Shown here piece by piece: positions 11,734 through 29,818 of a DNA stretch of 64,000 nucleotides (position 1 is the stretch's first letter; the number at the start of each line of letters is the position of its first letter). This stretch comes from Syntrophales bacterium (GTDB lineage: Bacteria > Desulfobacterota > Syntrophia > Syntrophales > UBA2210). Both the position numbers and the translations under genes were made by a program. The notes under the pieces are model-generated. The model saw nothing but the letters and a program-made list of their open reading frames with translations, did no database searches and had not been told where the DNA came from. The stretch covers positions 256,001 to 320,000 of the forward strand of contig CAXXNF010000002.1 of the NCBI GenBank assembly GCA_963666365.2. The letters run 5' to 3'.

Positions 11734-12026
11734 TCTATTTCAGGACTGACACGCATTTAAGCTCTCACGTGTGAAAGCTCATCTGTAAATAAAACGGGGG
11801 GCTGCTTAGAGTATTCTCTTTCCAGGTGGCAGCAGGTGTTACCGCCTCCTTTCCATGGATAAGCGGCTCCTCTTGCAGCTGCAGATATGATATTTCCATT
11901 ATTACCCGCAGCATAGCAATGCGTACGTTTTTTTGTCAAACTGTGTTTGTTTATTGAGCGAAAAAGCTGAAAGAAGGTTGACAAAAGAGAAGAGCCCTCT
12001 TACAAGAAGAAAGATAATTGTTCCAG

Positions 12027-12043
12027 GGGTGAGCGCTCGTTCT
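12027..12043. promoter_or_regulatory. Candidate TetR operator C upstream of the acyl-CoA ligase operon
   Basis: Reverse strand AGAACGAGCGCTCACCC, palindromic core GAGCGCTC, matches AACGAnCGnT of sites A and B; downstream of a TTGACA near 11980. Confidence 0.4.
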
Positions 12044-12070
12044 CTTAACATTTTGAAAGGAGGGATTACG

Positions 12071-13618: not shown

Positions 13619-13635
13619 AAAGAAGCGCATGTGCG

Positions 13636-16034: not shown

Positions 16035-17434
16035 ACGAAGATGCCTTCTATGAAAAGCTGACAAAGATCGTCGGAGCGGATTTTGCATCGAACCGCCCGG
16101 AAGAGCTTTTTCTTTATTCCCGCGATTCCGGCGCCACCGTGCCTCGCAGAGCGGATTATGCGACCATGCCGAAGACGGTGGAAGAACTGAAAAGCATTGT
16201 TCTGTTAGCGGGTGAATACTCGGTGCCGGTGGTTCCGCTGGGCGGCGGTCTTACCCTGTCGGCGCTGGCCGTGCCGGTCAGAGGCGGCGTCGTCCTCGAC
16301 CTGAAACGGATGGACCGGATCATCGAAATTGACGAAGAGGCCGGCTATGCCCTGATAGAACCGGGCGTCACCCAGGGGGCGCTCATTGCCTGTCTGGAAA
16401 GGGATCATCCCCATTTGCGCCACTCGGCGCCCGACGCCCCGCCGGCGGCAACCGTGGCGGGAAACGCCCTGATTTACGGTTCGGGACATCTATCGAAATA
16501 CGGCGCCCACTCCGAGATGATCACCGGTCTCGAGACGGTCCTTTCGGACGGGCGGATCTGCCGCATCGGGTCGTGCAGTACCGGCGGGCATTGGTTCTGC
16601 CGGTGGCCGCTTCCCGATCTTTCGTCTTTCTTCCTCAACTGGTTCGGCACCACAGGGATCGTGACAAAGCTGGCATACAAACTCTATCCGCGGCACAGGT
16701 ACCGGGATATGATCCCCTTTGTCGTAGAAGGCCCCGACCGGGTGCCCGAGGCGATCGGAAAGATCACCGCGACGGGGATGATGGAGGACGTGCTTATAGT
16801 GGTGGGAAAGCCGCCCAGGATTCCTTTTCTCGTTGCGATGCTGATCGTCTATGTGACCGCCGACACCGAAGAGGAACTGGCAATGAAAGAAGAGGTGTTC
16901 CGGGAGATGTTTGCCGGCTTCGGCGAGGAGGGTTCGCGGATTATCCATCATGCGAAGGAACTGTTTCCGCCGAAAATCGTCAAAGGGTTCATGGAGGAGC
17001 CGCAATACGCGGCGGCGGCGGCCGATTTTCTCCAGGGGGGCGGCTTCGAGTATCTCGGCATTGCCCTGCCGGTTGCGAAAATTCCCGAGGTATGGCGATG
17101 CGGCATGCAGATAGCCGCCGACTACGGTTTCGATGCGCCCCAGTATACGATAAGGAACATCGGCTGCGGCCATGGCGTGATCTTCGCCATCGGCTATCCC
17201 TTCAACCGCGCCGATGAGGCGAGCATGGAGCGCTCGCGCAAGGCGCTCTATGCGACGAACAGAATGGCCCTGAAGGTGGGTGGGGTGCACTGGAAACCGG
17301 AGCTCGACGGACAGAAATGCATACTTGACAATATCGATACCGGCGCCCGCGCCCTCATGGGAGAGGTAAAAGAGCTTTTCGATCCCGCCTCCATCATGAA
17401 CCCAGGCAACTGGACCGGGGTCGGACCCAACTAA
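16031..17434 (+). CDS. FAD-binding oxidoreductase (GlcD/FAD_binding_4 family)
   Basis: 'PVVPLGGGLTL', 'LDLKRMDRI', 'IEPGVT', 'GTTGIVTK', 'FDPASIMNPG'. Confidence 0.92.
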   Translation: MNEDAFYEKLTKIVGADFASNRPEELFLYSRDSGATVPRRADYATMPKTVEELKSIVLLAGEYSVPVVPLGGGLTLSALAVPVRGGVVLDLKRMDRIIEIDEEAGYALIEPGVTQGALIACLERDHPHLRHSAPDAPPAATVAGNALIYGSGHLSKYGAHSEMITGLETVLSDGRICRIGSCSTGGHWFCRWPLPDLSSFFLNWFGTTGIVTKLAYKLYPRHRYRDMIPFVVEGPDRVPEAIGKITATGMMEDVLIVVGKPPRIPFLVAMLIVYVTADTEEELAMKEEVFREMFAGFGEEGSRIIHHAKELFPPKIVKGFMEEPQYAAAAADFLQGGGFEYLGIALPVAKIPEVWRCGMQIAADYGFDAPQYTIRNIGCGHGVIFAIGYPFNRADEASMERSRKALYATNRMALKVGGVHWKPELDGQKCILDNIDTGARALMGEVKELFDPASIMNPGNWTGVGPN

Positions 17435-17536
17435 CCCCGCTTCTTCTTCCAGCCGCTGGGGATTTCTTGCCGCGGCATTGAAGATTGAAGTGGTGTTAAT
17501 GAGCATTATTTAACAGTGTACCCGGAAACGACCACT

Positions 17537-18859
17537 ATGAAAACCAGAAAGAATGTGAGAAGCGGAAAGCCAATGGCGCCCAGTAAAAGGACAGCCGGTT
17601 CGGAAATACTGCAAAAATTTTTGAATGGCAGCAGGAAAAGCTATGCCACTTCACTTAATATAGATTTCATACTGGAAAATGCACCCGAGGCCATTTATGT
17701 GGTGCAGGACGGAAAATTCAAATACGTCAACAAAAAGGTGTCGGAGATTCTTGGATTTTCAAAAGAGGAGATGTTGACCAAACAACCTCAGGATTTTGTC
17801 CATCCCGAAGATAAAAAACGGGTTATTGACAATTATTTCAGGAGATTGAAGGGGGAGGACATCGAACCCTATCTGTATAAAGGGTATGACAAATACGGTA
17901 ATTTGCAGTGGAGAAAAATCGCGGACCTGGTGATACTCTGGGAGGGCCGGCCGGCGACACTCAATTTTGTAAGCGATGCAACGCCGCGGGTGAAAGCGGA
18001 AGAGGCGTTCAAAAAATCCGAGCGGCAGCTGGCTGATATAATGGATTTTTTGCCCGACGCCACTTTCGCCCGGGATGTGGAAGGAACAGTAATTGCCTGG
18101 AATAAGGAAATGGAAAAGATGTCGGGAATCAAAGCGGCCGATATAATAGGAAAAGGAAACTACGAGTATGCCCTTCCCTTTTACGGAATCAGAAGGCCGA
18201 TGCTTATCGATCTTATTCTCAAACCGGACAGGGAAATAGAAAAAGACTATGTCTATTTCAAGAGGGAAAAAAATTTCATCTATGCCGTAAGCCGCTTTAT
18301 GTCCAAAGGGGCGCCTGTCTGGATCTGGGCCAAGTCAAGCATCATTTACGATCATCATGAAAATATCATCGGCGCCGTTGCTTCGATCCGGGATATAACC
18401 GATTCGAAGATCGCCGAAGATGAACTGACGGAAAAAACAGCCAATCTGGAGGCGGCAAATACTGCCTTGAAGGTGCTGCTGAAACACAGAGAGAACGACC
18501 AGAACGAACTCGAAGATAAAATAATACGAAATATACGAGAATTGGTTCTGCCCTATATCGAGAACCTGAAGATTGCCGGACTGAGTTCCGCTCAGGCCCG
18601 GTATGTCAATATCGCTGAAAGGCATTTAAACGAGATCGTTTCTCCTTTTCTGGTTAAAATGGCGCACAAGCATCGAAAATTAACCCCCCGAGAGCTGCAG
18701 ATCGCCAGCTTGATCAAGGACGGAAAAACCACAAAAGAAATTGCCGAAATACTCAATCTCGAAACCACTACCATTAATAATCACAGAGGTCGCCTCAGGA
18801 AAAAACTCGAACTGAAGGGCAAAGATAAAAATCTTCGCTCCTACCTGCTGTCCTTCTAA
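17537..18859 (+). CDS. PAS-PAS-LuxR transcriptional regulator
   Basis: Two PAS domains ('FVHPED', 'FLPDATF..VIAWN'), coiled coil 'NTALKVLL', LuxR HTH 'LTPRELQIASLIKDGKTTKEIAEIL'; start uncertain (17516/17537/17573). Confidence 0.92.
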   Translation: MKTRKNVRSGKPMAPSKRTAGSEILQKFLNGSRKSYATSLNIDFILENAPEAIYVVQDGKFKYVNKKVSEILGFSKEEMLTKQPQDFVHPEDKKRVIDNYFRRLKGEDIEPYLYKGYDKYGNLQWRKIADLVILWEGRPATLNFVSDATPRVKAEEAFKKSERQLADIMDFLPDATFARDVEGTVIAWNKEMEKMSGIKAADIIGKGNYEYALPFYGIRRPMLIDLILKPDREIEKDYVYFKREKNFIYAVSRFMSKGAPVWIWAKSSIIYDHHENIIGAVASIRDITDSKIAEDELTEKTANLEAANTALKVLLKHRENDQNELEDKIIRNIRELVLPYIENLKIAGLSSAQARYVNIAERHLNEIVSPFLVKMAHKHRKLTPRELQIASLIKDGKTTKEIAEILNLETTTINNHRGRLRKKLELKGKDKNLRSYLLSF

Positions 18860-19092
18860 TTAAGTGGTACACTGCTCATGTAGTTTCCGATGCAGGGGCA
18901 CGAGGAGTTTCTGAAGAGACGTCATCTCCTGTTTCAGGCTGATCCTGTCTTGTCTGATAAATCGAATTAGATACATCAGTGTTATACTGAGAAACACTAA
19001 TACATTGGGCAGTAAAAAATGCGTATATGCCCAGCTGTATTTTTTCGCCTTTTCGAACTATAGGCATAGGCAATAAGATGGTTTGCATGTGA

Positions 19093-19290
19093 CATACGTA
19101 TAAGACACTGAACAGCGTGGCTCATGTGTGTGCCTGCGACCATCAGGTTGTACGCGATGTCTACGTAGCGGAATATGAATTCCCGTGCAGATACTATGAT
19201 AATGCCGGCGCTCCGGCAAAACCGGTTGTGATGCCTGCCGAATACGTCATGCCGGCACCTCCGGCTGATCTCGAACGGTGCACCAGATAG
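19093..19290 (+). pseudogene. 3' remnant of a third ABC substrate-binding protein paralogue
   Basis: Translates 'TYKTLNSVAHVCACDHQVVRDVYVAEYEFP..YYD..APAKP..PPADLERCTR*', collinear with the C-termini of 21427 and 26470; preceded by TGA, 5' part absent. Confidence 0.9.
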
Positions 19291-19392
19291 GAAAAAAGTT
19301 GATTGCAGACTGCAAAATAAGAGCGGGACTCGGGGGGAATGTTCGGGGGCCGCTTTATTTTTAATATGTTATGCAAGGGAGGTACTATAACA

Positions 19393-21060
19393 ATGGGAAG
19401 TAACACATATCTTGAACATTACGATTACTGTGTGCCGGCGAGCCTTCGCACGCCGCGTCTGTCCGTGGCCGAGCTTCTGCAGATACCCGCAAATGCCTAT
19501 CCCGACAAGGCGGCAACGAATTTTTACGGTACGGAGATTACCTTCTGGGAGCTTCGGGCGCTTTCAATTCGCATGGCCAATGCGCTGGCGAAATTGGGAA
19601 TAGAGAAAGGCGATCGCGTGGGACTGCATCTTCCCACCTGTCCCCAGTATGTCATCGCCTACTATGCCATTCTCACACTGGGAGCGATCGTGGTGAATCT
19701 CAATCCCATCTACACGGAAGAGGAGATCAAAGAGGTTGCCGAGAATGTGGACATGAAGGGGCTCGTTACCTCTGATCTTTCACTTGCCACGATACGTGCA
19801 CTCTGCAAAGCGACGTCGATCCCCCTGGTGATCGTCACAAAAATATCCGATTTTATGGATGGAAAAGAAAAAAGCACGGCAGAAAGCCTCGATCTCGAAG
19901 AGGGCTGGTATCATTATTCAACCATTCTGGATGGTTGTACCGATACCACCCGTCCTCGCGTCGAAGTAGATCCCGACGATCCGGCCCTCCTGCAGTTTAC
20001 GGGGGGCACCACCGGCGTGCCCAAGGGGGCCATTCTGACTCACTACAATGTGGTGTCGTCAATATTGCGCTGTTCCGTCTGGGGTAACGCGGCAATCCAG
20101 AATATTCCGCCGGAGCGGCGTTATGTGCTCTTGGTGCTGCCGCTTTTCCATGTGTACGGCAACATCGTGACCATGAATTGGGCTATATTCAACTGCACGA
20201 CCCAGATTCTGGTTCCCCGCTTCGATCTCGATGAAATAATGGGTATTCTGGCAAGCTTCAAGGAGATAACTTATTTTCCTGCCGTGCCGACCATGTTGAC
20301 GGCGATCATCAACCACCCCGATGTGGCTGAGCTGGGGCTTGGCAAGAAAATTGGATTTGTCAATTCGGGTGCCGCCCCCATGCCGGTGGAGCTTATCGAA
20401 AAAATCAAAGATATGGGCGTGTATTTCAGTGAGGGCTGGGGCATGACCGAGACCTGTTCCGCAGGAATCTCCAGTCCCACTTTGGGCCGTAAGAAGGTTG
20501 GGAGCATCGGCATCCCCTATCCCGACATGGAGGTTCGGTTGGTCGATGTGGAGGATGGTGTCACCGATGTGAAACAGGGCGAGCCCGGCGAGATCATCAT
20601 CAAGGGTCCCATGGTGATGAAAGGCTATTGGAACAATCCTGAAGAGACGGCAAACCAACTCAAAGATGGCTGGCTTTACACCGGCGACATTGCGGTTCAG
20701 GACGAGGACGGCTACTACTTTATCGTAGATCGCAAAAAGGACATGATCATTGCCGGTGGGTTCAACATCTATCCGCGAGAGATCGACGAAGTACTGCACC
20801 AGCATCAGAAGATCGCCCAGGCGATATCGGTGGGTGTCCATGACGACTACCGCGGCGAAACGGTAAAGGCCTTCATCGTATTAAAGGAAGGTGAAGCGAT
20901 GACCGAGAGGGAGGTGATCGCCTTCTGCAAGGAAAAGCTGGTGGCCTACAAGGTGCCGAAGCTGGTTGAGTTCCGTGATTCTCTTCCCCAGTCCGCCGTG
21001 GGCAAGGTCCTGCGAAAGGTGTTGAGAGAGGAAGAAGAAGCGAAGAAGAAAAAGAGTTAG
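19393..21060 (+). CDS. Long-chain-fatty-acid--CoA ligase family protein (copy 1)
   Basis: 'QFTGGTTGVPKG', 'GWGMTET', 'YTGD', 'GGFNIYPREI', 'PQSAVGK'; RBS GGGAGG. Confidence 0.94.
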   Translation: MGSNTYLEHYDYCVPASLRTPRLSVAELLQIPANAYPDKAATNFYGTEITFWELRALSIRMANALAKLGIEKGDRVGLHLPTCPQYVIAYYAILTLGAIVVNLNPIYTEEEIKEVAENVDMKGLVTSDLSLATIRALCKATSIPLVIVTKISDFMDGKEKSTAESLDLEEGWYHYSTILDGCTDTTRPRVEVDPDDPALLQFTGGTTGVPKGAILTHYNVVSSILRCSVWGNAAIQNIPPERRYVLLVLPLFHVYGNIVTMNWAIFNCTTQILVPRFDLDEIMGILASFKEITYFPAVPTMLTAIINHPDVAELGLGKKIGFVNSGAAPMPVELIEKIKDMGVYFSEGWGMTETCSAGISSPTLGRKKVGSIGIPYPDMEVRLVDVEDGVTDVKQGEPGEIIIKGPMVMKGYWNNPEETANQLKDGWLYTGDIAVQDEDGYYFIVDRKKDMIIAGGFNIYPREIDEVLHQHQKIAQAISVGVHDDYRGETVKAFIVLKEGEAMTEREVIAFCKEKLVAYKVPKLVEFRDSLPQSAVGKVLRKVLREEEEAKKKKS

Positions 21061-21067
21061 CGGAAGA

Positions 21068-21103
21068 GGCTCTCCCTGGAATGCGTGCATTGTGGGGAGA
21101 GCC
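21068..21103 (+). terminator. Stem-loop after ligase copy 1
   Basis: GGCTCTCCC...GGGAGAGCC 9-bp stem followed by GTTCTCT. Confidence 0.5.
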
Positions 21104-21426
21104 GTTCTCTATGATAATCTCGCGACAATCCAATGGTGCCAGTCTGCTAAGAGATATCCTTAGTTCTTACAACATTGAGCTCAAAAATCTAAGATATTAG
21201 TTAACTGTAAATCCGTGTCTCGCCGATTATATTGGGTGCTGATTTCGCGTATTAAGTATCATGATTCGGATGAGATGAAGCCCTGTATGAATATGGGTGC
21301 CACGGGTCCTTTTGGGGATTGTCTTTAATGTGACGGAGCCTGGGTTATCGAAGAATTAGAGAGGGTGGACTGCTTATTTTTGCAGATGAAAGAAAATGCG
21401 TTTTTAGGAAGAAAGGAGATGGTAGT

Positions 21427-22782
21427 ATGAAAAGTATATGGAAAAGTCGTTTCACAGTAGTGTGTCTCGTGTGCCTCTGTGCCGTGGGCATATCATTAAT
21501 GGGAGTATCCGGCGTACAGGCGGCAATGCCGGCCTTCGATTTCAGTAAGATGTCCGATATGTCGGGGTTTGATCCGAGCAGCTTTGAAAACCCCACCGGC
21601 GATGTGGTCAAGATCGGTGTTGTCGAGGCCTTTTCGGGACCCGGCGCCTTTAACGGACAGATTTACTGGATGGTCAACAGCTGGGTTGCCTACGACTACA
21701 ACAAGCGGGGCGGCGTCATGGTGGACGGTAAAAAGAAACAGATCGCCGTCATCAAGGGAGACAGCCAGGGTAAACCGGCCATCTGCAAAAAGATTACGGA
21801 GAAACTCTGTCTCGAAGATAAAGTCGATCTGATCTTTGGAACGGCGGGAAGTCATCTGACGCTGATCGTGCAACAGACTGCGAAGAAATACAAAACTGTT
21901 TTCATGAATACGTTGTCGGTTTCTGATGCCCTCATGGATGCAAAAAACTTCAATCGCTATTCATTCAGAACCACCCTCACCACAAAATCGATCGGTATGG
22001 GCATGGCCTATTTCTATTCCAAACGGCCGGAAACAAAATTTTATATTCTGAATCAGGATTATTCTTTTGGACATGATGCGGCGCAGGTGTTTAAAGATGC
22101 ACTGAAAAAATATAAACCGGAAGCCCAGGTTGTGGGTGAAGATTATCATCCCCTTTTCCTGAAAGATTTTGCACCCTATATCACAAAGATTATGGCCTCG
22201 GGGGCGGAAGTCATCTTCACCGGCGACTGGTCGCCCGATGCACAGAATCTGCTGGTGCAGTCACGCCAGTTGGGATGTAAACTGCCCTATGCCAATGTAT
22301 ACATGGATGCGCCGGCAACACTGGCCGCCGTCGGTGGAGAAGGCACAAGAGGACTGGTGAATCTGAACGACCATCATATGACAACCGGTACACCGGAGCT
22401 GGAAAAGTATATAGAAGTAGTTCACAACACCTGGAAAAACTGGAAGGCGCCCTATGACACCATCATGTGGGCCTGGCCTGTCGGCGCCGGTTATAAAGCA
22501 CTGGTAATGGATTACTGGATGATGGACGTAGTTGAGCGGGCCGGCAGCACCGATCCGGAAAAGATCATCAAAACCTGGGAAGGGGATACCTATAAGGCAA
22601 TCAATGGCGTGGTGCACATGCGTGCCTGCGATCATCAGATGGTCCGTGATCTTTTTGTGGCGGAATACGAATTCCCCAACAAATACTATGATGACGCCGC
22701 CGCGCCCGGCAAGCCCTTTATCGTGCCGGCTGAACATGCGTTTGCGGCTCCTCCTGCCGACCTCGAACGGTGCAAGAAGTAG
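21427..22782 (+). CDS. ABC substrate-binding protein, LivK/PBP1 branched-chain/aromatic acid type (copy 2)
   Basis: Signal peptide ending 'VQAA', 'KIGVVEAFSGP', 'NQDYSFG', 'DFAPYITKI', 'MRACDHQ'. Confidence 0.92.
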   Translation: MKSIWKSRFTVVCLVCLCAVGISLMGVSGVQAAMPAFDFSKMSDMSGFDPSSFENPTGDVVKIGVVEAFSGPGAFNGQIYWMVNSWVAYDYNKRGGVMVDGKKKQIAVIKGDSQGKPAICKKITEKLCLEDKVDLIFGTAGSHLTLIVQQTAKKYKTVFMNTLSVSDALMDAKNFNRYSFRTTLTTKSIGMGMAYFYSKRPETKFYILNQDYSFGHDAAQVFKDALKKYKPEAQVVGEDYHPLFLKDFAPYITKIMASGAEVIFTGDWSPDAQNLLVQSRQLGCKLPYANVYMDAPATLAAVGGEGTRGLVNLNDHHMTTGTPELEKYIEVVHNTWKNWKAPYDTIMWAWPVGAGYKALVMDYWMMDVVERAGSTDPEKIIKTWEGDTYKAINGVVHMRACDHQMVRDLFVAEYEFPNKYYDDAAAPGKPFIVPAEHAFAAPPADLERCKK

Positions 22783-22813
22783 AACGGCAGCACTACAACA
22801 GAATGTGTAACAC

Positions 22814-22851
22814 AAAAGCGGCGCTCGGGAGGTTCGGGCGCCGCCTTTTTT
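22814..22851 (+). terminator. Rho-independent terminator
   Basis: GCGGCGCTCG...CGGGCGCCGC stem followed by T run. Confidence 0.7.
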
Positions 22852-22948
22852 CTGAAAAGCAGACAATGAAAAACCCTGTATGAGTTGGACAGAGCAATAT
22901 GATTGCGATATAGAAGTAATCTAATGAAATGCACGAGGCAGAAGAAAA

Positions 22949-23200
22949 GGCAACGCACGTTTCGTCAATCAGCCTATTGGGGGTAATGTGAGGCAATGAC
23001 AGGAGATTACGGGGTATGAGGAGCAAGAGCTTTTGACGCACCACCGCATGAAGTTTGTCCATCCCGACGATAGGGATGCGATTTATGAACGTGTGCAGCG
23101 AAGGTTCCAGGGTGAGTTGATTCCCCGCATGTACCCCTACCGGATTGTCTGCAAAAACGGTTCTGTTAAGTGGGTTGAGGTGAATACGGTTTTTATTATC
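22949..23200 (+). pseudogene. Isolated PAS-domain remnant
   Basis: 'RFVNQ..*QEITGYEEQELL..KFVHPDDR..RRFQGE..YPYRIVCKNGSVKWVE'; in-frame TGA 22997-22999; resembles the PAS domains of 17537 and 33711. Confidence 0.7.
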
Positions 23201-23286
23201 CATTCAAAAACAGGCATAAAATGCCAAAGTCTTTTTAATAGTTTAATCGGTACCAAAATAATTCTTACATAGGGAGATAGACCTCA

Positions 23287-24582
23287 ATGGAAACAGTAAA
23301 ACCAGGACCCCTTTCCAATGTGAACGTACTGGATTTCACATGGGTGCTTGCGGGGCCGCATGCAGCAAAGACGTTGACGGACATGGGCGCACAGGTCATC
23401 AAAGTGGAGAAGTATAAAGCGGGCACCAATGAGCGGCATCAGGCGCTTCAGGTGGAAAAAAACGGCATCACCCAGTGTTCTTATCATCTTAATTTAAATC
23501 GCGGAAAAAAGAGCGTCTGTATCAATCTGAAACATCCCAAAGGTATAGAGCTGATCCACGAGTTGATAAAAAAAAGCGACATTATCATAGAAAACTTTTC
23601 TCCCCTGGTGATGGGCAGGCTGGGATTGGATTATGAGGGTGCCAGAAAAATCAAACCGAACATCATCTATTGTTCCATTTCTGCATGGGGGCATTTTGGC
23701 CCCAATAGCGACAAACCCGGTTATGACGCCATCGCCCAGGCGGCGAGCGGATGGATCGGACTTACTGCGAAGAAAGTGGGAGCGCCCGTGGCTATAGGAG
23801 ATACTATGGCGGCCATGCACGCCTGTACAGCCATATTGGGAGCCCTGTATCACAGAACACTTACGGGCGAGGGGCAGAACATTGATATTTCGCTGGTAGA
23901 CTGTCTTTTTTCTATCCACGAAACCTCTTTTCCCGCCTACTGGATCAGCGAGGCGGCAGGTAAACCTTTCATCATGCCGGGAACCGACCAGAAAAGTCCC
24001 ACGTCGTCCCCCTATGGGGTCTATAATGGTAAAAACGGCGCCATATCGATTGCGCTGCTCTCGGATAACCGATGGCCGGAGCTTGTGGATCTTATGGGAC
24101 CCGGCTATGAATGGCTGAAAACGGATCCTCGTACCATCGATGTTGCAGCGCGCTGTAAAAACGAGAATGTCTTCCTCGTCCATGACGCCCTGGAGTCATG
24201 GGTCATGTCGCAGGGTTCGGTGGAGGAGGCGGAAGGAAAACTGGAAGGGGTCGGGATACCCTGCTGTCGCGTGAAGACCATACCCGAATTGGCTACTACC
24301 GATCCCCATCTGGGGGCGCGCGGGATGCGCGTAAAGAAGGTGCAACCGTTCATTGGACCGATCACCATGAGCGGAAGCCCTCTGAAGTTTTCCGAAACAC
24401 CTGCCATGATACGGGGGTACGCCCCGTTTCTGGGGGAACACAACCGTGAAGTTCTCGGTTCCTTTCTTGACTATTCGAAGGAACAAATCGAGGCGCTTTA
24501 CAAAGAAGATGTGCTCTATCATGCCCCGGAGGTGGAAAAACTGCCGGAGGAATTAAAAAGGATTGCGGAGAACGCCGCGTGA
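23287..24582 (+). CDS. Family III CoA-transferase (CaiB/BaiF)
   Basis: 'VLDFTWVLAGP', 'MGAQVIKVE', 'NRGKKS', 'ENF', 'GYDAIAQA', catalytic Asp in 'IGDTMAA', 'APFLGEH'. Confidence 0.95.
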   Translation: METVKPGPLSNVNVLDFTWVLAGPHAAKTLTDMGAQVIKVEKYKAGTNERHQALQVEKNGITQCSYHLNLNRGKKSVCINLKHPKGIELIHELIKKSDIIIENFSPLVMGRLGLDYEGARKIKPNIIYCSISAWGHFGPNSDKPGYDAIAQAASGWIGLTAKKVGAPVAIGDTMAAMHACTAILGALYHRTLTGEGQNIDISLVDCLFSIHETSFPAYWISEAAGKPFIMPGTDQKSPTSSPYGVYNGKNGAISIALLSDNRWPELVDLMGPGYEWLKTDPRTIDVAARCKNENVFLVHDALESWVMSQGSVEEAEGKLEGVGIPCCRVKTIPELATTDPHLGARGMRVKKVQPFIGPITMSGSPLKFSETPAMIRGYAPFLGEHNREVLGSFLDYSKEQIEALYKEDVLYHAPEVEKLPEELKRIAENAA

Positions 24583-24626
24583 AACTGAACGTAACTATCG
24601 TTTAATAACAGGAAGGAGAAGTTGTA

Positions 24627-26168
24627 ATGATCAAAACAGTAGAACAGTACCTTGAAAGTTTAAATGACGGGCGTGAAGTCTGGTGCCTGGGAGAAAAGGT
24701 TGCCGACGTGCGGACCCATCCGACAATCAGCACCATCATCAGAATGGCTACGATGGATTATGTCCTGCCGAATCATCAGGATTACAGGGATATCTTTGTG
24801 ACTCAGGACGAAGACGGTGAGGATATCAATTTTCTTCTCACGTCGCCGAAGACGTCTGAAGACATGCTGCGGCGCCGCGAATGCTATCTGGCGGGCATGA
24901 GATCGGGCGGTGGCGTTCTCGTTCATTGCATGGGCGCCGATGCGCTGGCCTCATTCAGTGTCGCCGCCGAGGTTATGGACAAGAAACTGGGCACGGGATA
25001 CATGGAGCGTGTCGAGCAGTACCGTAGGCACCTTCAGAAGAACGACCTGGCCCTGACCGGTGCCATTACGGATGTGAAGGGAGACAGAAGCCTGCATCCC
25101 TCACAGCAGAAGCAGCACCAGGACTTTTATGTGCGAGTAGTGGATAAACAGAAGGATGGCATTATAGTCCGCGGAGCCAAGGTGCATATCAGCGCATCCC
25201 CCTGCGCCAACGAACTGCTCTGCCTGCCCTGCCGGACCCACGGGGAAGCGGACCAGGATTACGCCCTTGCCTTTGCCGTGCCCGTCAATACGCCTGGGGT
25301 GAAGCTTCTGGGCGTGGAGCCGAATGTCCGTTTGTACGGCGAAGAATGCGAATTCGACTATCCCTATTCGGATCATTTGCAGCCGTCGGAGTCTCTGGTC
25401 ATTTTCGATGACGTATTTGTGCCTTGGGAGCGTGTATTCATGTGCGGCGAGTGGCAGTATTCCCAGGTGCTGGCCTATGCCTTTGCCAGCTATCACCGCC
25501 TTTTCGGTACCTGCAAGATGACGAGTACCCTCGAGATAATGACCGGTGCGGCGAGTCTGATCGCCGAATACAATGGTGTCCGGAATGTGCCCCACGTGAG
25601 GAAGAAACTGGCCTGGATGGCCTATATCACCGAAACGGTGCAGATGCTGGGGAAACAGGCCTGTCTCGATCCGGTCACGGAATTCGGCATGGATGTGATG
25701 ATGCCGAACCGCATGGCCATCAATTCGTCGAAATTCACCTATGCGAGTAATTTCCATCAGATGGTACAGCACATGCAGGATATCGGCGGCGGATTGACCA
25801 CCACCGTACCGGCCTTCCGTGATTGGAAGAACCCGGAGATACAGCCCTTCATCGAGAAATATCTGGCGGCGAAAGACGGGATTTCCACAGAGGAACGGAT
25901 GCGCATGTTGCGGCTCATCAAGGATGTAACGGGAAATCACTGGGAAACCGACACCATTCACGGGGAAGGATCCATGGCGGCGCAGGAGATGTTCCTGTTC
26001 GGCAGTGCCGACTGGAATAAGCTGCATTCGGCGGCGAAACGGGCTGCCCATATCGACGGGTGGCAGGATGATGCCGTATACGGCAAGCTTCCCCTGCGGA
26101 AGGATTATGTAACTATGCCTTCTATCGATGAATCCTATGAAAGCATCGCAATGACGGCAAAGAAATAA
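24627..26168 (+). CDS. 4-hydroxybutyryl-CoA dehydratase (AbfD)/HpaB-family flavoprotein, divergent
   Basis: 'YLESL', 'CMGADA', 'AITDVKGDRS', 'RGAKVH', 'FDDVFVPWERVF', 'YHR...CK', 'HGEGSMAAQ'. Confidence 0.88.
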   Translation: MIKTVEQYLESLNDGREVWCLGEKVADVRTHPTISTIIRMATMDYVLPNHQDYRDIFVTQDEDGEDINFLLTSPKTSEDMLRRRECYLAGMRSGGGVLVHCMGADALASFSVAAEVMDKKLGTGYMERVEQYRRHLQKNDLALTGAITDVKGDRSLHPSQQKQHQDFYVRVVDKQKDGIIVRGAKVHISASPCANELLCLPCRTHGEADQDYALAFAVPVNTPGVKLLGVEPNVRLYGEECEFDYPYSDHLQPSESLVIFDDVFVPWERVFMCGEWQYSQVLAYAFASYHRLFGTCKMTSTLEIMTGAASLIAEYNGVRNVPHVRKKLAWMAYITETVQMLGKQACLDPVTEFGMDVMMPNRMAINSSKFTYASNFHQMVQHMQDIGGGLTTTVPAFRDWKNPEIQPFIEKYLAAKDGISTEERMRMLRLIKDVTGNHWETDTIHGEGSMAAQEMFLFGSADWNKLHSAAKRAAHIDGWQDDAVYGKLPLRKDYVTMPSIDESYESIAMTAKK

Positions 26169-26173
26169 CTCGC

Positions 26174-26215
26174 TCCTTTTCCGCCCGGGAATGTGCTTCC
26201 CGGGTGGAAAAGGGA
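26174..26215 (+). terminator. Strong stem-loop after the dehydratase-like gene
   Basis: TCCTTTTCCGCCCGGGAA...TTCCCGGGTGGAAAAGGGA inverted repeat. Confidence 0.65.
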
Positions 26216-26271
26216 CTTCAGATTTGCAAATAACCTGCCCATACGTGCATCACAACGGTCAAATAGATAGG

Positions 26272-26284
26272 CAATTAATTGATT
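26272..26284. promoter_or_regulatory. Candidate IHF binding site
   Basis: CAATTAATTGATT matches YAANNNNTTGATW in an AT-rich region upstream of 26470. Confidence 0.35.
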
Positions 26285-26469
26285 ATTAGTTGATTATTTT
26301 ATTGGCCAAATATATCTTCACATATCAACCAAAATATTATATTGTACTAAGCAAAAAGAAGAGGTATATACTCCATACGCGGAGCGATATATTAACCGAT
26401 GGTGTTGATGATGTGTTACACCGGGCAACTGCAAGTGGTTGGTAAAACCACCCAAAAAGGAGGACATGC

Positions 26470-27825
26470 ATGGGTTTTTTAATTAGAAGAAAGATTACTT
26501 TTGTGGGTTTGATCTGTCTTTGCGCCATTGCGGCAGCGACAATTGGCGCAGTGGGCGTACAGGCGGCCATGCCGGCATTTGACGTCAATAAAGTGTCCGA
26601 TATGAGCGGGTACGATCCGACCACCTTCGAAAACCCAACCGGTGATGTTATAAAGATCGGTGTGGTCGAGGCGTTTTCCGGTCCTGCTGCCTTTAACGGC
26701 CAGATTTACTGGATGGTGAATACGTGGCTTGCCTATGATATCAACAAACGCGGCGGCATTATGGTAGACGGCAAGAAGAAAAAGATTGCCGTCATCAAGG
26801 GTGACAGCCAGGCAAAACCGGCAAATTGCAAAAAGGTTACAGAAAAGCTCTGTCTTGAGGACAAGGTGGATCTGCTCTTTGGAACTGCAGGCAGCCATCT
26901 GACCCTGATCGTTCAGCAGGTGGCGGAGAAATACAAAACAGTATTCATGAATCCCATGTCGCTTTCCGATGCACTGATGGATGCGAAAAACTTCAGCCCC
27001 TATACCTTCAGGACGACGATTACGACGAAGTCAATCGGTATGGGAATGGCCTATTTCTACTCGAAAAGACCGGAAAATAAATTTTACATATTGAACCAGG
27101 ATTATTCCTACGGTCATCTCATGGCGGAGGCCTTTAAGGAGTCATTGAAAAAATACAAACCCAACGCGGAAATCGTGGGAGAAGATTTTCACCCCCTCTT
27201 CATCAAGGATTTCGCGCCCTATCTTACAAAAATACAGGCTTCGGGCGCCGAGGTGATTTTCAGCGGCGATTGGGCCCCCGACGCACAGAATCTCCTGATG
27301 CAGGCCCGTCAGATGAAATGCATGCTTCCCTTCGCCAATATCTATATGGATGCGCCGGCACAGCTTGTCGCAGTGGGTGTCGAGGGGTCGAAGGGAATGG
27401 TGAATCTTAACGATCACCATATGACGATCGGAACGCCGGAAATGGATAAATTTATCGATCTTTACCACAATGTAGCGACGAAATGGAAAGCCCCCTACGA
27501 CACCATCATGTGGGTGTGGCCGCTGGGCGCCGGCGCCAAGACAATGATCATGGGCTACTGGATGTGGGATGTGGTCGAACGTGCGGAAAGCGCAGATGCC
27601 GAGAAAATAATCAAAACCTGGGAGGGAGACACTTACAAGGCCCTCAACGGCATAGTCCATATGAGGGCCTGCGATCATCAGGTCGTACGCGATGTCTACG
27701 TTGCGGAGTATGTCTATCCCAACCCGTACTACAAGGATGCAGCCGCGCCGGGAAAACCCTTTGTCGTACCGGCCGAATTCGCTATTCCCCCACCGCCGGC
27801 TGATCTGGAACGGTGCAAGAAGTAA
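26470..27825 (+). CDS. ABC substrate-binding protein, LivK/PBP1 type (copy 3)
   Basis: Collinear 451-aa paralogue of 21427 with the same motifs. Confidence 0.92.
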   Translation: MGFLIRRKITFVGLICLCAIAAATIGAVGVQAAMPAFDVNKVSDMSGYDPTTFENPTGDVIKIGVVEAFSGPAAFNGQIYWMVNTWLAYDINKRGGIMVDGKKKKIAVIKGDSQAKPANCKKVTEKLCLEDKVDLLFGTAGSHLTLIVQQVAEKYKTVFMNPMSLSDALMDAKNFSPYTFRTTITTKSIGMGMAYFYSKRPENKFYILNQDYSYGHLMAEAFKESLKKYKPNAEIVGEDFHPLFIKDFAPYLTKIQASGAEVIFSGDWAPDAQNLLMQARQMKCMLPFANIYMDAPAQLVAVGVEGSKGMVNLNDHHMTIGTPEMDKFIDLYHNVATKWKAPYDTIMWVWPLGAGAKTMIMGYWMWDVVERAESADAEKIIKTWEGDTYKALNGIVHMRACDHQVVRDVYVAEYVYPNPYYKDAAAPGKPFVVPAEFAIPPPPADLERCKK

Positions 27826-27849
27826 GGTGCGCGTTTAGAATGTTGATCC

Positions 27850-27886
27850 AAACGGTACTCGAGATGGCCTTCGAGTACCGTTTTTT
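27850..27886 (+). terminator. Terminator/attenuating hairpin between binding protein and ligase
   Basis: AAACGGTACTCGA...TCGAGTACCGTTT followed by T run. Confidence 0.7.
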
Positions 27887-27915
27887 AATATCTTCATAAA
27901 GGAAAGGTTCATAAA

Positions 27916-29583
27916 ATGAGCAATAAAAACTATCTGGAGTTTTACGACTACTGCGTGCCCGAGACAGTGCGGACACCAAGACTTTCCGTTGCTGACCTGC
28001 TGCAGATTCCGGCGAATGCCTATCCCGACAAGGCGGCTACTGACTTTTACGGAACCGAGATTACCTTCTGGGAACTGCGAACCCTGACCCTGCGCATGGC
28101 CAATGCCCTGGCGAAACTGGGAATAGGAAAAGGCGACCGGGTGGGACTGCATCTTCCTACCTGCCCTCAGTACCCGATCGCCTATTATGCGGTGCTTTCG
28201 CTGGGCGCGATAGTGGTGAATCTCAATCCCATCTACACAAATGATGAAATCAAGGGAGTTGCCGAGAATGTCGATATGAAGGCCCTCATCACATCGGATG
28301 TGTCCCTGCCGATTGTGCGGGTACTCTGCAAGACCGTTTCCATTCCGATTGTAATCGTGACAAAAGTTACCGATTTTATCGCAGGTCTGGGCGTCAGTAC
28401 GGCCAAGAGCCTCGATCTTCAGGAAGGGTGGCATCATTATTCAACGATTCTGGACGACTGTACCGATACGCGGCGCCCCCGGGTTGACATACATCCCGAC
28501 GATCCGGCCCTGATTCAGTTTACGGGAGGCACCACGGGAATTCCCAAGGGCGCCATCCTGACCCACTACAACACTCTCAGTTCCATTCTGCGCGGGTTTA
28601 TCTGGGGGACGGCGGCAATCCAGAATATACCGCCCGAACGCCGCCACGTCCTTGAGGTACTTCCGCTGTTTCACGTATACGGAAATGTGACCATGAACTG
28701 GTCCATGCTCAGTTGCACCACTCAGATTATGGTTCCCCGCTTTGATCTTGAAGAGCTGATGGGCATTATGGCACGATTCAAGGAAATTACCTATTTCCCT
28801 GCCGTGCCCACAATGCTGACGGCGATTATCAATCATCCAAAAGTGGAGGAGCTGGGTCTCGATAAAAAGATCGGCTTCGTCAATTCCGGGGCCGCTCCCA
28901 TGCCGGTGGAGCTGATCGAACGCATCAAGGATATGGGCATCTACTTCAGCGAAGGCTGGGGCATGACCGAGACCTGCTCTGTAGGGATTCAGTGTCCGAC
29001 ACTGGGACTCAAAAAGGTCGGCAGCATCGGCATCCCTTACCCCGATACGGAAGTCCGTCTGGTCAATGTCGAGGATGAGGTCACCGATGTAAAGCAGGGA
29101 GAACCGGGGGAGATCGTCATCAAAGGACCCATGGTGATGAAGGGTTACTGGAACAATCCCGAAGAGACGGCAAATCAGCTCAGAGACGGCTGGCTCTACA
29201 CCGGTGACGTTGCCGTCCAGGACGAGGACGGCTACATCTTCATCGTCGACCGCAAGAAGGATATGATAATCGCCGGCGGATTCAATATCTATCCGCGTGA
29301 GATTGACGAGGTGCTCCACCAGCATCCGAAGATTGCCCAGGCCGTCGCCGTTGGCGTGCATGATGCGTATCGTGGTGAAACGGTAAAGGCATTTATTGTT
29401 GCCGTAGCAGGGGAAACATTAGTGGAAAAGGAAGTTATTGATTTTTGTAGAGAAAAACTTGTGGCATACAAGGTTCCTAAACTCGTTGAATTTCGTGACA
29501 GCTTGCCCCAGTCGGCCGTGGGGAAGGTGTTGCGAAAGGTTCTCAGGGAAGAGGAGGAGGCAAAAAGAAAAAAAGGAGAATGA
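27916..29583 (+). CDS. Long-chain-fatty-acid--CoA ligase family protein (copy 2)
   Basis: Collinear paralogue of 19393 with the same adenylation motifs. Confidence 0.94.
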   Translation: MSNKNYLEFYDYCVPETVRTPRLSVADLLQIPANAYPDKAATDFYGTEITFWELRTLTLRMANALAKLGIGKGDRVGLHLPTCPQYPIAYYAVLSLGAIVVNLNPIYTNDEIKGVAENVDMKALITSDVSLPIVRVLCKTVSIPIVIVTKVTDFIAGLGVSTAKSLDLQEGWHHYSTILDDCTDTRRPRVDIHPDDPALIQFTGGTTGIPKGAILTHYNTLSSILRGFIWGTAAIQNIPPERRHVLEVLPLFHVYGNVTMNWSMLSCTTQIMVPRFDLEELMGIMARFKEITYFPAVPTMLTAIINHPKVEELGLDKKIGFVNSGAAPMPVELIERIKDMGIYFSEGWGMTETCSVGIQCPTLGLKKVGSIGIPYPDTEVRLVNVEDEVTDVKQGEPGEIVIKGPMVMKGYWNNPEETANQLRDGWLYTGDVAVQDEDGYIFIVDRKKDMIIAGGFNIYPREIDEVLHQHPKIAQAVAVGVHDAYRGETVKAFIVAVAGETLVEKEVIDFCREKLVAYKVPKLVEFRDSLPQSAVGKVLRKVLREEEEAKRKKGE

Positions 29584-29818
29584 TGTTCTGAATAAATTTT
29601 TTTCCTGTACGGCTTTTTTTCAGGAAGATACAGGTGTCTGCGCTTTCAATAAAGGGTCTCAGAAATAGGTATATCAGATTGATAATATAATATGAAATCG
29701 ACCAGTTGCCGAAATTGCGCCCAGTTGACTTCCCTGAGTCTTTCTGTTATAGATCCCTGCACTTTTGAAATAAATTTCATCAATTGTTCGCAATATACAG
29801 AATGAGCGGGGATAGAGA

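What the first reader, a model, noticed from the sequence alone, without database searches (positions are those of the whole stretch)
17537..29583. Triplicated, partly decayed 'binding protein + CoA-activation' cassette with no permease or ATPase
Seen: three serial units. Unit 1 is a binding-protein tail (19093-19290), a hairpin and a ligase (19393). Unit 2 is a binding protein (21427), a hairpin, a PAS remnant, a CoA-transferase and an AbfD-like gene. Unit 3 is a binding protein (26470), a hairpin and a ligase (27916). Each binding-protein copy is followed by a related GC hairpin plus T tract. No LivH/M/G/F genes are in the window. A PAS-LuxR regulator heads the block. Inference: an expandable specificity module in which paralogous binding proteins and ligases widen the range of carboxylates captured and activated (vectorial acylation or a shared transporter elsewhere), feeding a radical-type dehydratase step. 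This could be an undescribed catabolic pathway.
Basis: partly seen in the sequence, partly recalled or inferred. Interest (0 to 1): 0.7.

Follow-up and report, generated by a model that had tools for sequence, protein, structure and literature searches.

The report
Duplicated uptake-and-activation gene modules
This stretch holds old, partly decayed copies of a repeated gene module (sensor-regulator, periplasmic binding protein, CoA ligase) that this syntrophic bacterium's genus has multiplied throughout its genome, and the missing membrane transporter is most likely shared and encoded elsewhere.

Summary
The region carries two intact LivJ-type binding proteins (75% identical), a 64-codon tail of a third, two FadD-like CoA ligases (83% identical), homologous terminator hairpins, a PAS-domain remnant, a family III CoA-transferase and an AbfD-like gene. 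There is no permease in the window.

It is not a local oddity. It is one of about a dozen loci of a module that has expanded across this genome:
- 28 intact and 3 truncated paralogous binding proteins
- 15 paralogous ligases
- PAS-LuxR regulators beside 12 of the 31 binding-protein hits

The congener has 10 binding proteins and 6 ligases. 24 other relatives have 0-1 of each.

26 of 30 family binding proteins lie more than 5 kb from any LivHM permease. Three of the four LivHMGF systems that do adjoin family members fall in one four-member permease clade. In low-copy genera the binding protein sits beside LivHMGF in 4 of 8 loci. A shared transporter elsewhere is therefore the supported reading.

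The copies are old (synonymous sites saturated), under purifying selection (dN/dS about 0.05), and confirmed by independent contigs.

The AbfD-like enzyme lacks one of the four canonical Fe-S ligands, so a radical dehydratase step is unproven. Substrates are unknown.

Verdict: a new member of a known kind, of moderate interest.

The parts
17516..18859 (+). PAS-PAS-LuxR (GerE HTH) one-component regulator. ATG at 17537. Soluble, with no membrane segment seen in the translation.
   Evidence: Pfam PAS 68.8 bits and GerE 53 bits. Translation. Paralogues of 49-74% identity lie beside other modules.
19096..19290 (+). 5'-truncated remnant of a family binding-protein gene: the last 64 codons plus the stop.
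   Evidence: Repeat family D1. E = 1.6e-23 to SBP3 residues 387-450. 41-44 of 64 residues match the SBP2/SBP3 subclade, with an in-frame stop just upstream. dN is raised to 0.165-0.214, against 0.089-0.144 between intact tails.
19321..19363 (+). GC hairpin plus U tract after the remnant. It is homologous to the hairpins of units 2 and 3.
   Evidence: Fold (z = -1.6) and alignment. The terminator scan did not call it.
19393..21060 (+). FadD-like AMP-forming acyl-CoA ligase 1.
   Evidence: Pfam AMP-binding 282 bits plus AMP-binding_C. 83% identical to ligase 3. No NCBIfam cut-off reached.
21062..21108 (+). Strong hairpin after ligase 1, with no clear U tract.
   Evidence: -28 kcal/mol, z = -3.35.
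21427..22782 (+). Binding protein 2, a LivJ-type Peripla_BP_6 protein with an N-terminal hydrophobic leader.
   Evidence: Pfam 177.8 bits. 75% identical to SBP3. Placed in the subclade with SBP3 and C2:663807.
22818..22854 (+). Intrinsic-terminator-like hairpin plus T run after SBP2.
   Evidence: 12-pair stem with 9 GC pairs, then CTTTTTTCTG. Fold.
23000..23272 (+). Remnant of a module-type PAS-LuxR regulator. About 67 residues of one PAS domain are followed by an unrelated tail.
   Evidence: PF08447 E = 6.8e-10. The best matches are regulators beside other modules: 55% to C1:282168-282362 and 46% to C2:1622131-1621931. It is only 33% identical to the window's own regulator.
23287..24582 (+). 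Family III CoA-transferase.
   Evidence: PF02515 320.8 bits. No NCBIfam cut-off reached. Nearest solved relatives are formyl-CoA transferase and succinate-hydroxymethylglutarate CoA-transferase. Apart from a 60% paralogue in this genome and a partial 68% match in G019, matches in the 25 relatives were at most 36% identical.
24627..26168 (+). AbfD-like flavoenzyme (HpaB_N/HpaB) of a subfamily with Val in place of the first cluster cysteine.
   Evidence: Pfam 274.9 and 162.6 bits. 1u8v E = 9.8e-75, with alignment. Ligand columns examined. Orthologues of 83-90% identity occur across Syntrophales MAGs.
26174..26214 (+). Strong hairpin after the AbfD-like gene.
   Evidence: -33.2 kcal/mol, z = -5.2.
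26470..27825 (+). Binding protein 3.
   Evidence: Pfam 179.1 bits. AlphaFold model with pLDDT 90.2 and a type I periplasmic-binding-protein fold. 83% identical to C2:662455-663807.
27850..27893 (+). Intrinsic-terminator-like hairpin plus T run after SBP3.
   Evidence: 14-pair stem, then TTTAATATCT after a run of T. z = -3.98.
27916..29583 (+). FadD-like AMP-forming acyl-CoA ligase 3.
   Evidence: Pfam 268.6 bits. Nearest solved relatives are a fatty-acyl/feruloyl-CoA synthetase, FadD13 and 4-coumarate ligases.

Best explanation
The region is a patchwork of about two and a half copies of a module made of three parts: a PAS-LuxR regulator, an exported LivJ-type solute-binding protein and a FadD-like acyl-CoA ligase. 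A CoA-transferase/AbfD-like gene pair sits between the copies. This genus has multiplied the module throughout its genome by birth-and-death duplication.

Proposed mechanism:
1. The binding proteins are orphans. Each captures a carboxylate in the periplasm and hands it to one of a few shared LivHMGF translocators encoded elsewhere. The best candidates form one four-member permease clade: C2:578473-580193, C2:668267-669999, C2:947356-949086 and C2:2058164-2059899.
2. The cytoplasmic ligase traps the imported acid as a CoA thioester, which enters beta-oxidation-type enzymes.
3. The hairpin after each binding-protein gene is an inherited intrinsic terminator or attenuator. It lets the binding protein be made in excess over the ligase.

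Shown: the gene families, the copy relationships, the genome-wide and genus-level expansion, the orphan status, the existence of complete operons, and purifying selection.

Inferred: which translocator is used, that the paralogues differ in ligand, the substrates, and the role of the regulator.
For: - Copy relationships.
- Genome-wide family: 53 PF13458 hits, 30 of them in this paralogue family. Only 4 of those 30 lie within 5 kb of a PF02653 permease, against 20 of 23 for the other binding proteins.
- Pairing with ligases: 13 of 31 family binding-protein hits have an AMP ligase within 600 bp. 9 of 15 family ligases have a family binding protein within 250 bp. A LuxR-type regulator lies within 3.2 kb of 12 of the 31. 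The Pfam scans I ran confirm the module at seven further loci.
- Complete operons with the same families: SBP-LivHMGF-ligase (69% identical to lig1) at C2:2053001-2066000, and SBP-LivHMGF at C2:576001-584000. SBP-ligase-beta-oxidation genes-AbfD-like-LivHMGF-ACAD in L040.
- Permeases: LivH and LivM of three of the four systems that adjoin family binding proteins fall in one four-member clade, with support 100 and 98.
- Low-copy genera: the binding protein lies beside LivHMGF in 4 of 8 loci.
- Expansion: binding proteins number 29 (G000), 10 (congener) and 0-1 (24 other relatives). Ligases number 15, 6 and 0-1. Only 6 of 120 other genomes of the order hold 1-4 copies.
- Selection: dN/dS is 0.05 for lig1/lig3 and 0.06 for SBP2/SBP3, with pS about 0.7.
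- Fold: model pLDDT 90.2, with structural neighbours that are LivJ-type binding proteins for amino acids, urea and aromatic acids.
- Precedent, from passages of PMC3223731 read: R. palustris COG0683 binding proteins bind fatty, dicarboxylic and aromatic acids. Paralogous binding proteins sit next to the PimA ligase with matching profiles. Orphan binding proteins are common.
Against: - No ligand, transport or expression data exist. No RNA run was listed, which is neutral.
- The nearest family-type permease is hundreds of kb away, so pairing rests only on paralogy and phylogeny.
- The fourth system adjoining a family binding protein (C2:2325841-2327590) falls outside the permease clade.
- The binding-protein and ligase trees agree for only some adjacent pairs, so the module is reshuffled as well as copied.
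- No shared operator motif was found upstream of the 43 family genes, so common control by the PAS-LuxR regulators is unsupported.
- Solved relatives are only 17-22% identical, so the ligand class cannot be inferred.
Confidence: 0.7

Rival explanations
1. Redundant duplicates in neutral decay. The cassette is simply dying tandem copies with no functional diversification, and only one binding protein and one ligase matter.
For: One binding-protein copy is reduced to 64 codons and one regulator to a PAS fragment. Other modules in the genome are also broken: a split regulator and a 203-aa binding-protein fragment in L093, and a 287-aa fragment in L090.
Against: The intact copies are old (pS about 0.7) yet strongly constrained, with dN/dS 0.05-0.08. 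All intact genes have full-length open frames and full Pfam coverage. The congener keeps several members of the same subclade at 71-86% identity.
Confidence: 0.12
2. The orphan binding proteins are sensors rather than transport components. They would signal substrate availability, for example to a membrane partner, with the PAS-LuxR regulators as the output.
For: 26 of 30 family binding proteins have no adjacent permease. Regulators are frequent neighbours, beside 12 of 31. The fold family includes a cytoplasmic amide sensor, AmiC.
Against: The PAS-LuxR protein has no membrane or periplasmic part, so it cannot contact an exported binding protein directly. Family members sit in canonical SBP-LivHMGF operons in this genome and in other genera. 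The constant partner is a ligase, an enzyme of catabolism.
Confidence: 0.08
3. Permease-free uptake by vectorial acylation. The acids cross the membrane passively or through a porin-like route and are trapped by the ligases, while the binding proteins only concentrate them in the periplasm.
For: No permease or obvious ATPase lies near the cluster. The ligases are FadD-like, and FadD drives vectorial acylation in E. coli (recalled knowledge).
Against: The same binding-protein family is encoded with LivHMGF in complete operons. No FadL-type gene was noticed in the cluster. A periplasmic binding protein has no known role without a membrane partner.
Confidence: 0.05
4. Assembly artefact: the repeats are collapsed or mis-joined copies.
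For: None found.
Against: The copies are only 72-80% identical in DNA. Logan contigs from two studies bridge the units with 0-2 differences.
Confidence: 0.01

Closest known systems
Rhodopseudomonas palustris binding proteins RPA3723-3725 beside the pimFABCDE operon and the PimA ligase (PMC3223731, passages read)
   Same: Several paralogous COG0683/LivJ-type binding proteins are clustered with a broad-range acyl-CoA ligase and beta-oxidation genes. The binding profiles for fatty and dicarboxylic acids match the ligase's substrate range.
   Different: In R. palustris the binding proteins lie next to their ABC transporter genes. Here most are orphans, the family has 28 intact members, and PAS-LuxR regulators accompany them. 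The window ligases score 354-371 bits against the pimA model, below its cut-off of 705.6, and solved R. palustris binding proteins are only 15-21% identical.
R. palustris CouP (RPA1789) with p-coumarate-CoA ligase RPA1787 (PMC3223731; PDB 4jb0)
   Same: A binding protein is encoded beside the CoA ligase for the same substrate, with the transporter in a separate unit.
   Different: It is a single module, not an expanded family. It is 15% identical to SBP3, and its ligand is known, whereas the ligands here are not.
E. coli LivJ and LivK sharing one LivHMGF translocator (recalled textbook knowledge; PDB 1z15 and 1usg appear)
   Same: More than one binding protein of this fold docks on one LivHMGF translocator.
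   Different: The ratio there is two to one, for amino acids. Here it would be about 28 to 3-4, for unknown and probably non-amino-acid carboxylates.
4-hydroxybutyryl-CoA dehydratase/vinylacetyl-CoA isomerase AbfD of Clostridium aminobutyricum (PDB 1u8v)
   Same: Same fold and family (E = 9.8e-75). The equivalents of C103, H292 and C299 are kept.
   Different: The equivalent of C99 is Val, with a conserved His next to the retained Cys. The neighbouring CoA-transferase is family III, whereas the AbfT type is recalled to be family I.
Family III CoA-transferases (formyl-CoA transferase Frc, succinate-hydroxymethylglutarate CoA-transferase, benzylsuccinate CoA-transferase BbsEF)
   Same: PF02515 across the full length. 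168-200 bits to solved members.
   Different: It reaches no NCBIfam equivalog cut-off. No match above 36% identity was found in the 25 relatives, apart from a partial 68% match in G019.

Membership tests
LivJ-type (Peripla_BP_6, cluster B) ABC-importer binding protein | Peripla_BP_6 domain over the full length and a two-lobed type I periplasmic-binding-protein fold | tested here: met
   177.8 and 179.1 bits against a cut-off of 31.7. Model pLDDT 90.2. Foldseek target-normalised TM-score 0.73-0.86 to most LivJ-type binding proteins listed (closed forms).
LivJ-type (Peripla_BP_6, cluster B) ABC-importer binding protein | N-terminal export signal | tested here: inconclusive
   A hydrophobic N-terminal stretch ends in VQA-A and is modelled as a low-confidence helix over residues 2-32. 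No signal-peptide predictor was available.
LivJ-type (Peripla_BP_6, cluster B) ABC-importer binding protein | Encoded with its LivHMGF permease and ATPase genes | tested here: not met
   The nearest PF02653 hit is 51.6-56.7 kb away. The feature is met for paralogues in L088 and L089, and in 4 of 8 loci in low-copy genera.
LivJ-type (Peripla_BP_6, cluster B) ABC-importer binding protein | Binds a defined ligand and delivers it to the translocator | not testable with these tools
   Solved relatives are 17-22% identical and bind amino acids, urea or aromatic acids.
AMP-forming acyl-CoA ligase (ANL superfamily, FadD-like) | AMP-binding plus AMP-binding_C domains | tested here: met
   282.2/65.4 bits and 268.6/63.8 bits.
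AMP-forming acyl-CoA ligase (ANL superfamily, FadD-like) | Membership of a named equivalog (FadD, PimA, MenE and others) | tested here: not met
   Best scores are below the cut-offs: PRK06710 468.8 against 1116, PRK06187 421.7 against 476, pimA 370.6 against 705.6.
4-hydroxybutyryl-CoA dehydratase (AbfD) | HpaB_N plus HpaB fold and homology to 1u8v | tested here: met
   274.9 and 162.6 bits. E = 9.8e-75 over residues 1-474.
4-hydroxybutyryl-CoA dehydratase (AbfD) | All four [4Fe-4S] ligands (C99, C103, H292, C299; residue numbers and roles recalled, not from a call) | tested here: not met
   The four columns read V-C-H-C in the window protein and in 58 of 61 orthologues of at least 80% identity (3 of 61 read VCHA). 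Nine of the 12 near-full-length paralogues in the same genome read C-C-H-C.
4-hydroxybutyryl-CoA dehydratase (AbfD) | Dehydratase or isomerase activity on 4-hydroxybutyryl-CoA or vinylacetyl-CoA | not testable with these tools
Family III CoA-transferase | CoA_transf_3 domain over the full length | tested here: met
   320.8 bits, profile positions 1-366 of 366.
Rho-independent terminator | GC-rich stem-loop followed directly by a U run | tested here: met
   Units 2 and 3 are called by the scan. Unit 1 has an interrupted stem and a UUUAUUUUU tail and was not called. The total number of scan hits in the region (13) does not exceed shuffles (14.0 +/- 3.7).

The most novel reading that the evidence does not exclude
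The recurring trio of this binding-protein family, this ligase family and the V-H-C type AbfD-like enzyme may encode an undescribed anaerobic route in Syntrophales for a class of 4-hydroxy, 4-oxo or unsaturated carboxylates. The three are found together here. Within 3.2 kb upstream (adjacent in 10), a family ligase and the enzyme are paired in 12 of 78 related loci. All three sit in one complete operon with LivHMGF and beta-oxidation genes in L040. In this reading an AbfD relative with an altered or absent Fe-S site carries out a non-canonical dehydration or double-bond shift. The burst of about 28 binding proteins and 15 ligases in this genus would then be an adaptive widening of substrate range in an organism usually regarded as a narrow specialist.
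Probability: 0.22. Interest if true: 0.6.

Novelty: new member of a known kind. Interest (0 to 1): 0.32.

Why it matters
Syntrophic Syntrophales are usually seen as metabolic specialists with small genomes. A genus that has multiplied an uptake-plus-activation module about thirty-fold, while keeping only a few matching translocators, points to an unexpectedly broad menu of organic acids. It also offers a natural system for studying how many binding proteins share one ABC translocator. For annotation, these genes should not be called branched-chain amino-acid binding proteins or long-chain fatty-acid ligases. The AbfD-like subfamily, 83-90% conserved across Syntrophales MAGs and lacking one cluster ligand, is an uncharacterised enzyme worth assaying.

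Tried and rejected
- **Shared operator for the PAS-LuxR regulators.** 8-mer enrichment over the 350 nt upstream of 43 family genes gave only ribosome-binding-site-like words. The best other word occurred in 7 of 43.
- **Structured RNAs and tRNAs.** No Rfam match at E <= 0.1 in 11000-34000. No tRNA or tmRNA in 9000-40000.
- **Expression.** No RNA holder was listed for 19000-28999, so nothing can be said.
- **Conserved synteny.** In the congener G001 the TrpRS-ScpAB-RluB flank adjoins other genes, and a binding-protein/ligase pair sits on another contig. The CoA-transferase had matches of at most 36% identity in 25 relatives, apart from a partial 68% match in G019.
- **Binding-protein traces near lone ligases.** None within 3 kb of the four ligases that lack a neighbouring binding protein.
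- **Ligand class from solved relatives.** Sequence, profile and fold searches gave only 17-22% identical neighbours with mixed ligands.
- **Atlas look-up of the AbfD-like protein.** Only generic AbfD/HpaB clusters came back.
- **'Magic' benzene cluster.** I considered that the upstream ligase plus FAD/FeS/FAD block is a relative of the 'Magic' benzene cluster (PMC13101534, sections 10-12 and passages read). The paper reports close homologues in only a handful of genomes, and I could not obtain its sequences, so this is untested.
- **Not run.** Complex prediction of a binding protein with LivHM, because the chains exceed the size limit and the test has low power for transient docking.
- **Literature.** Searches found no paper describing this expansion. 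One search also found no open paper that gives the AbfD ligand numbering.

Full report
**What is there.** On the + strand between 17.5 and 29.6 kb the window encodes the following:
- a PAS-PAS-LuxR regulator (17516/17537-18859)
- a FadD-like AMP-forming ligase (19393-21060)
- a Peripla_BP_6 binding protein (21427-22782)
- a family III CoA-transferase (23287-24582)
- an HpaB_N/HpaB protein of the AbfD type (24627-26168)
- a second binding protein (26470-27825)
- a second ligase (27916-29583)

The two binding proteins share 340 of 451 residues. The two ligases share 459 of 554. The last 192 nt of the binding-protein gene occur three times at 72-73% identity.

The first of those three copies (19096-19290) is a 64-codon tail that keeps its frame and stop codon. 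An in-frame stop precedes it, and it has no ATG; its in-frame GTG codons lack a ribosome-binding site. It shares 41-44 of 64 residues with members of the SBP2/SBP3 subclade, against at most 29 of 63 with other paralogues.

A 67-residue piece of a PAS domain lies at 23000-23200. An in-frame stop precedes it and an unrelated tail follows. Its best matches are regulators that flank other ligase/binding-protein modules (55% and 46%). It is only 33% identical to the window's own regulator.

The hairpins after the three binding-protein copies align with each other, and unit 3 keeps pairing through changes on both arms. The terminator scan calls two of them. Across the region, though, the scan finds no more sites than in shuffled sequence: 13 against 14.0 +/- 3.7. 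Strong hairpins also follow ligase 1 and the AbfD-like gene.

**Not an artefact, and not recent.** The copies are 72-80% identical in DNA. Public contigs from two studies bridge them. X1 covers 16500-25501 with no differences. X3 covers 23922-29721 with two.

Between the intact copies the synonymous sites are saturated (pS about 0.7), while dN/dS is 0.05-0.08. The duplicates are therefore old and both are constrained. The remnant has a higher dN, 0.165-0.214 against 0.089-0.144 for intact tails. That comparison rests on only 64 codons.

SBP3's closest relative is not SBP2 (76%) but a gene about 380 kb away, C2:662455-663807 (83%). The congener G001 holds five members of the same subclade at 71-86% identity. 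The ligase tree groups lig1, lig3 and the single close G001 ligase with support 100. Within that group lig1 pairs with the G001 copy at support 89. The duplications therefore predate the split of the two species.

My binding-protein tree contained only one of the G001 copies. It cannot be used to order these events.

**The locus is one of many.** The genome has 53 PF13458 matches and 40 PF02653 matches, that is 20 LivHM pairs. Thirty of the 53 belong to one paralogue family, at least 47% identical to SBP3. The family comprises 28 full-length genes, three truncated ones and a few tiny traces.
- Only 4 of the 30 lie within 5 kb of a permease, against 20 of 23 for the remaining binding proteins.
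- The ligases belong to a family of 15, at 55-83% identity to ligase 3.
- 9 of the 15 ligases have a family binding protein within 250 bp, and 11 within 4.5 kb.
- 13 of 31 binding-protein hits have an AMP ligase within 600 bp.
- 12 of 31 have a LuxR-type regulator paralogue within 3.2 kb.

My Pfam scans of 43 of 52 ORFs from seven other loci show the same parts in varying order. The neighbours there include acyl-CoA dehydrogenases, NMO-type reductases, an enoyl-CoA hydratase and an aldehyde dehydrogenase. One further decayed module has a split regulator and a 203-residue binding-protein fragment.

**Where the transporter is.** Complete operons with the same families exist.
- At C2:2053001-2066000 the order is SBP, LivH, LivM, LivG, LivF, ligase. 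That ligase is the closest relative of lig1 and lig3 outside the window (67-69%).
- At C2:576001-584000 there is SBP-LivHMGF.
- The 83% paralogue of SBP3 lies downstream of a LivHMGF plus CoA-transferase operon (which covered 64 of 74 ORFs listed).

In a tree of all 40 permease domains, the LivH and LivM proteins of these three systems form one clade with C2:947356-949086. Support is 100 for the LivH half and 98 for the LivM half. The fourth system next to a family member falls outside the clade.

In other genera of the order that carry 1-4 family members, the binding protein adjoins LivHMGF in 4 of 8 loci. A MAG locus, L040, carries one operon: SBP, ligase, NMO, 3-hydroxyacyl-CoA dehydrogenase, SDR, enoyl-CoA hydratase, AbfD-like, LivHMGF, acyl-CoA dehydrogenase. 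L042 shows the same order by similarity, but its neighbours were not scanned against Pfam (in one search I scanned 57 of 134 ORFs, from 12 of 15 chosen loci).

The family is therefore a genuine ABC-importer binding protein. Its orphan members here most likely use a few shared translocators. Sharing of one translocator by several binding proteins, orphan binding proteins, and COG0683 proteins that bind fatty, dicarboxylic and aromatic acids beside a CoA ligase are all documented in R. palustris (PMC3223731, passages read).

**The expansion is genus-specific.**
- At E <= 1e-100 the binding-protein family has 29 matches in this genome, 10 in the congener and 0-1 in 24 other relatives.
- In a wider sample of 120 genomes of the order, 6 have 1-4 copies at E <= 1e-110. 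At most 14 candidates per genome were scored there.
- The ligase family gives 15, 6 and 0-1 at E <= 1e-150.

Some adjacent pairs have matching positions in both trees, for example C1:660028/C1:661658 with C2:1619628/C2:1621320. Others do not. Modules are therefore both copied whole and reshuffled.

**The CoA-transferase and AbfD-like pair.** The AbfD-like protein aligns to 1u8v at E = 9.8e-75. By my recollection the cluster ligands of that enzyme are C99, C103, H292 and C299. No open paper confirming the numbering was found.

At these four columns the window protein reads V, C, H, C. So do its 91% and 77% paralogues. Among orthologues of at least 80% identity, 58 of 61 read VCHC and 3 of 61 read VCHA. 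Nine of the 12 near-full-length paralogues in this genome read C, C, H, C.

The gene is 83-90% conserved across many Syntrophales MAGs, but its neighbourhoods vary. A ligase of the module family (58-65% identical) lies within 3.2 kb upstream, on the same strand, in 12 of 78 loci. It is directly adjacent in 10 of them. A family binding protein is present in 12 of 78. Many of these loci are short, so both figures are lower bounds.

A functional link between ligase and AbfD-like enzyme is therefore plausible. A radical dehydratase mechanism is not established.

The CoA-transferase reaches no NCBIfam cut-off. Apart from a 60% paralogue in this genome and a partial 68% match in G019, matches in the 25 relatives searched were at most 36% identical. 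Its paralogue sits in a different cluster with a TRAP transporter and two canonical AbfD-type genes.

**What could not be resolved.** Ligands and substrates remain unknown. The SBP3 model is confident (pLDDT 90.2). Its structural neighbours are only 17-22% identical and bind amino acids, urea or aromatic acids. The ligases' nearest solved relatives are fatty-acyl, feruloyl and 4-coumarate ligases. No common operator, no Rfam family and no RNA data set were found.

**Verdict.** This is an expandable uptake-and-activation module with a shared transporter elsewhere. It is a known design (orphan binding proteins plus CoA ligases), carried here to an unusual, genus-specific scale and undergoing birth-and-death turnover. 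The most novel reading still open concerns the AbfD-like subfamily and the unknown acids it and the modules serve.

Noticed in passing
window 11933-17434: An AMP-forming ligase (11933-13618) is followed by a translationally coupled FAD_binding_4 / CCG-type Fe-S / FAD_binding_4 trio of GlcDEF type. Its G+C is 0.55-0.60, against 0.43-0.46 just downstream. The composition recalls the 'Magic' cluster proposed for anaerobic benzene activation (PMC13101534). No sequence comparison was possible, and that paper reports close homologues in few genomes.
   Followed up: partly
G000 genome-wide; L087 (C1:1324001-1343000), L131 (C2:1726001-1745000): The genome holds 13 tblastn matches to the AbfD/HpaB family, 12 of them near full length. 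They include a tandem pair 91% and 77% identical to the window gene. Another cluster carries a 60% CoA-transferase paralogue, a sigma-54 activator, TRAP transporter genes and two canonical AbfD-type genes with C_GCAxxG_C_C proteins. That is an unusually large set for a strict anaerobe.
   Followed up: partly
L093 (G000:C1:280001-287000) and L090 (G000:C2:2322001-2336000): Other modules are decayed too. In L093 a regulator is split into separate PAS and GerE ORFs beside a ligase and a 203-aa binding-protein fragment. In L090 a 287-aa binding-protein fragment lies beside an AbfD-type gene.
   Followed up: partly
L095 (G000:C2:343001-353000): Two PAS-PAS-LuxR regulators, each 55% identical to the window's regulator, flank one family ligase and precede a family binding protein. 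This is a module with a duplicated regulator.
   Followed up: no
window 33711-35945: A 744-aa protein with four PAS domains and an HD-GYP-type HD_5 domain lies downstream of the housekeeping TrpRS-ScpAB-RluB genes.
   Followed up: no
alignment A2 (19 family binding proteins): Invariant motifs M-R-A-C-D-H (residues 398-403 of SBP3) and a C-terminal Cys449 suggest a conserved disulfide or metal site near the C-terminal extension. This extension makes these proteins about 70 residues longer than typical LivJ proteins.
   Followed up: no
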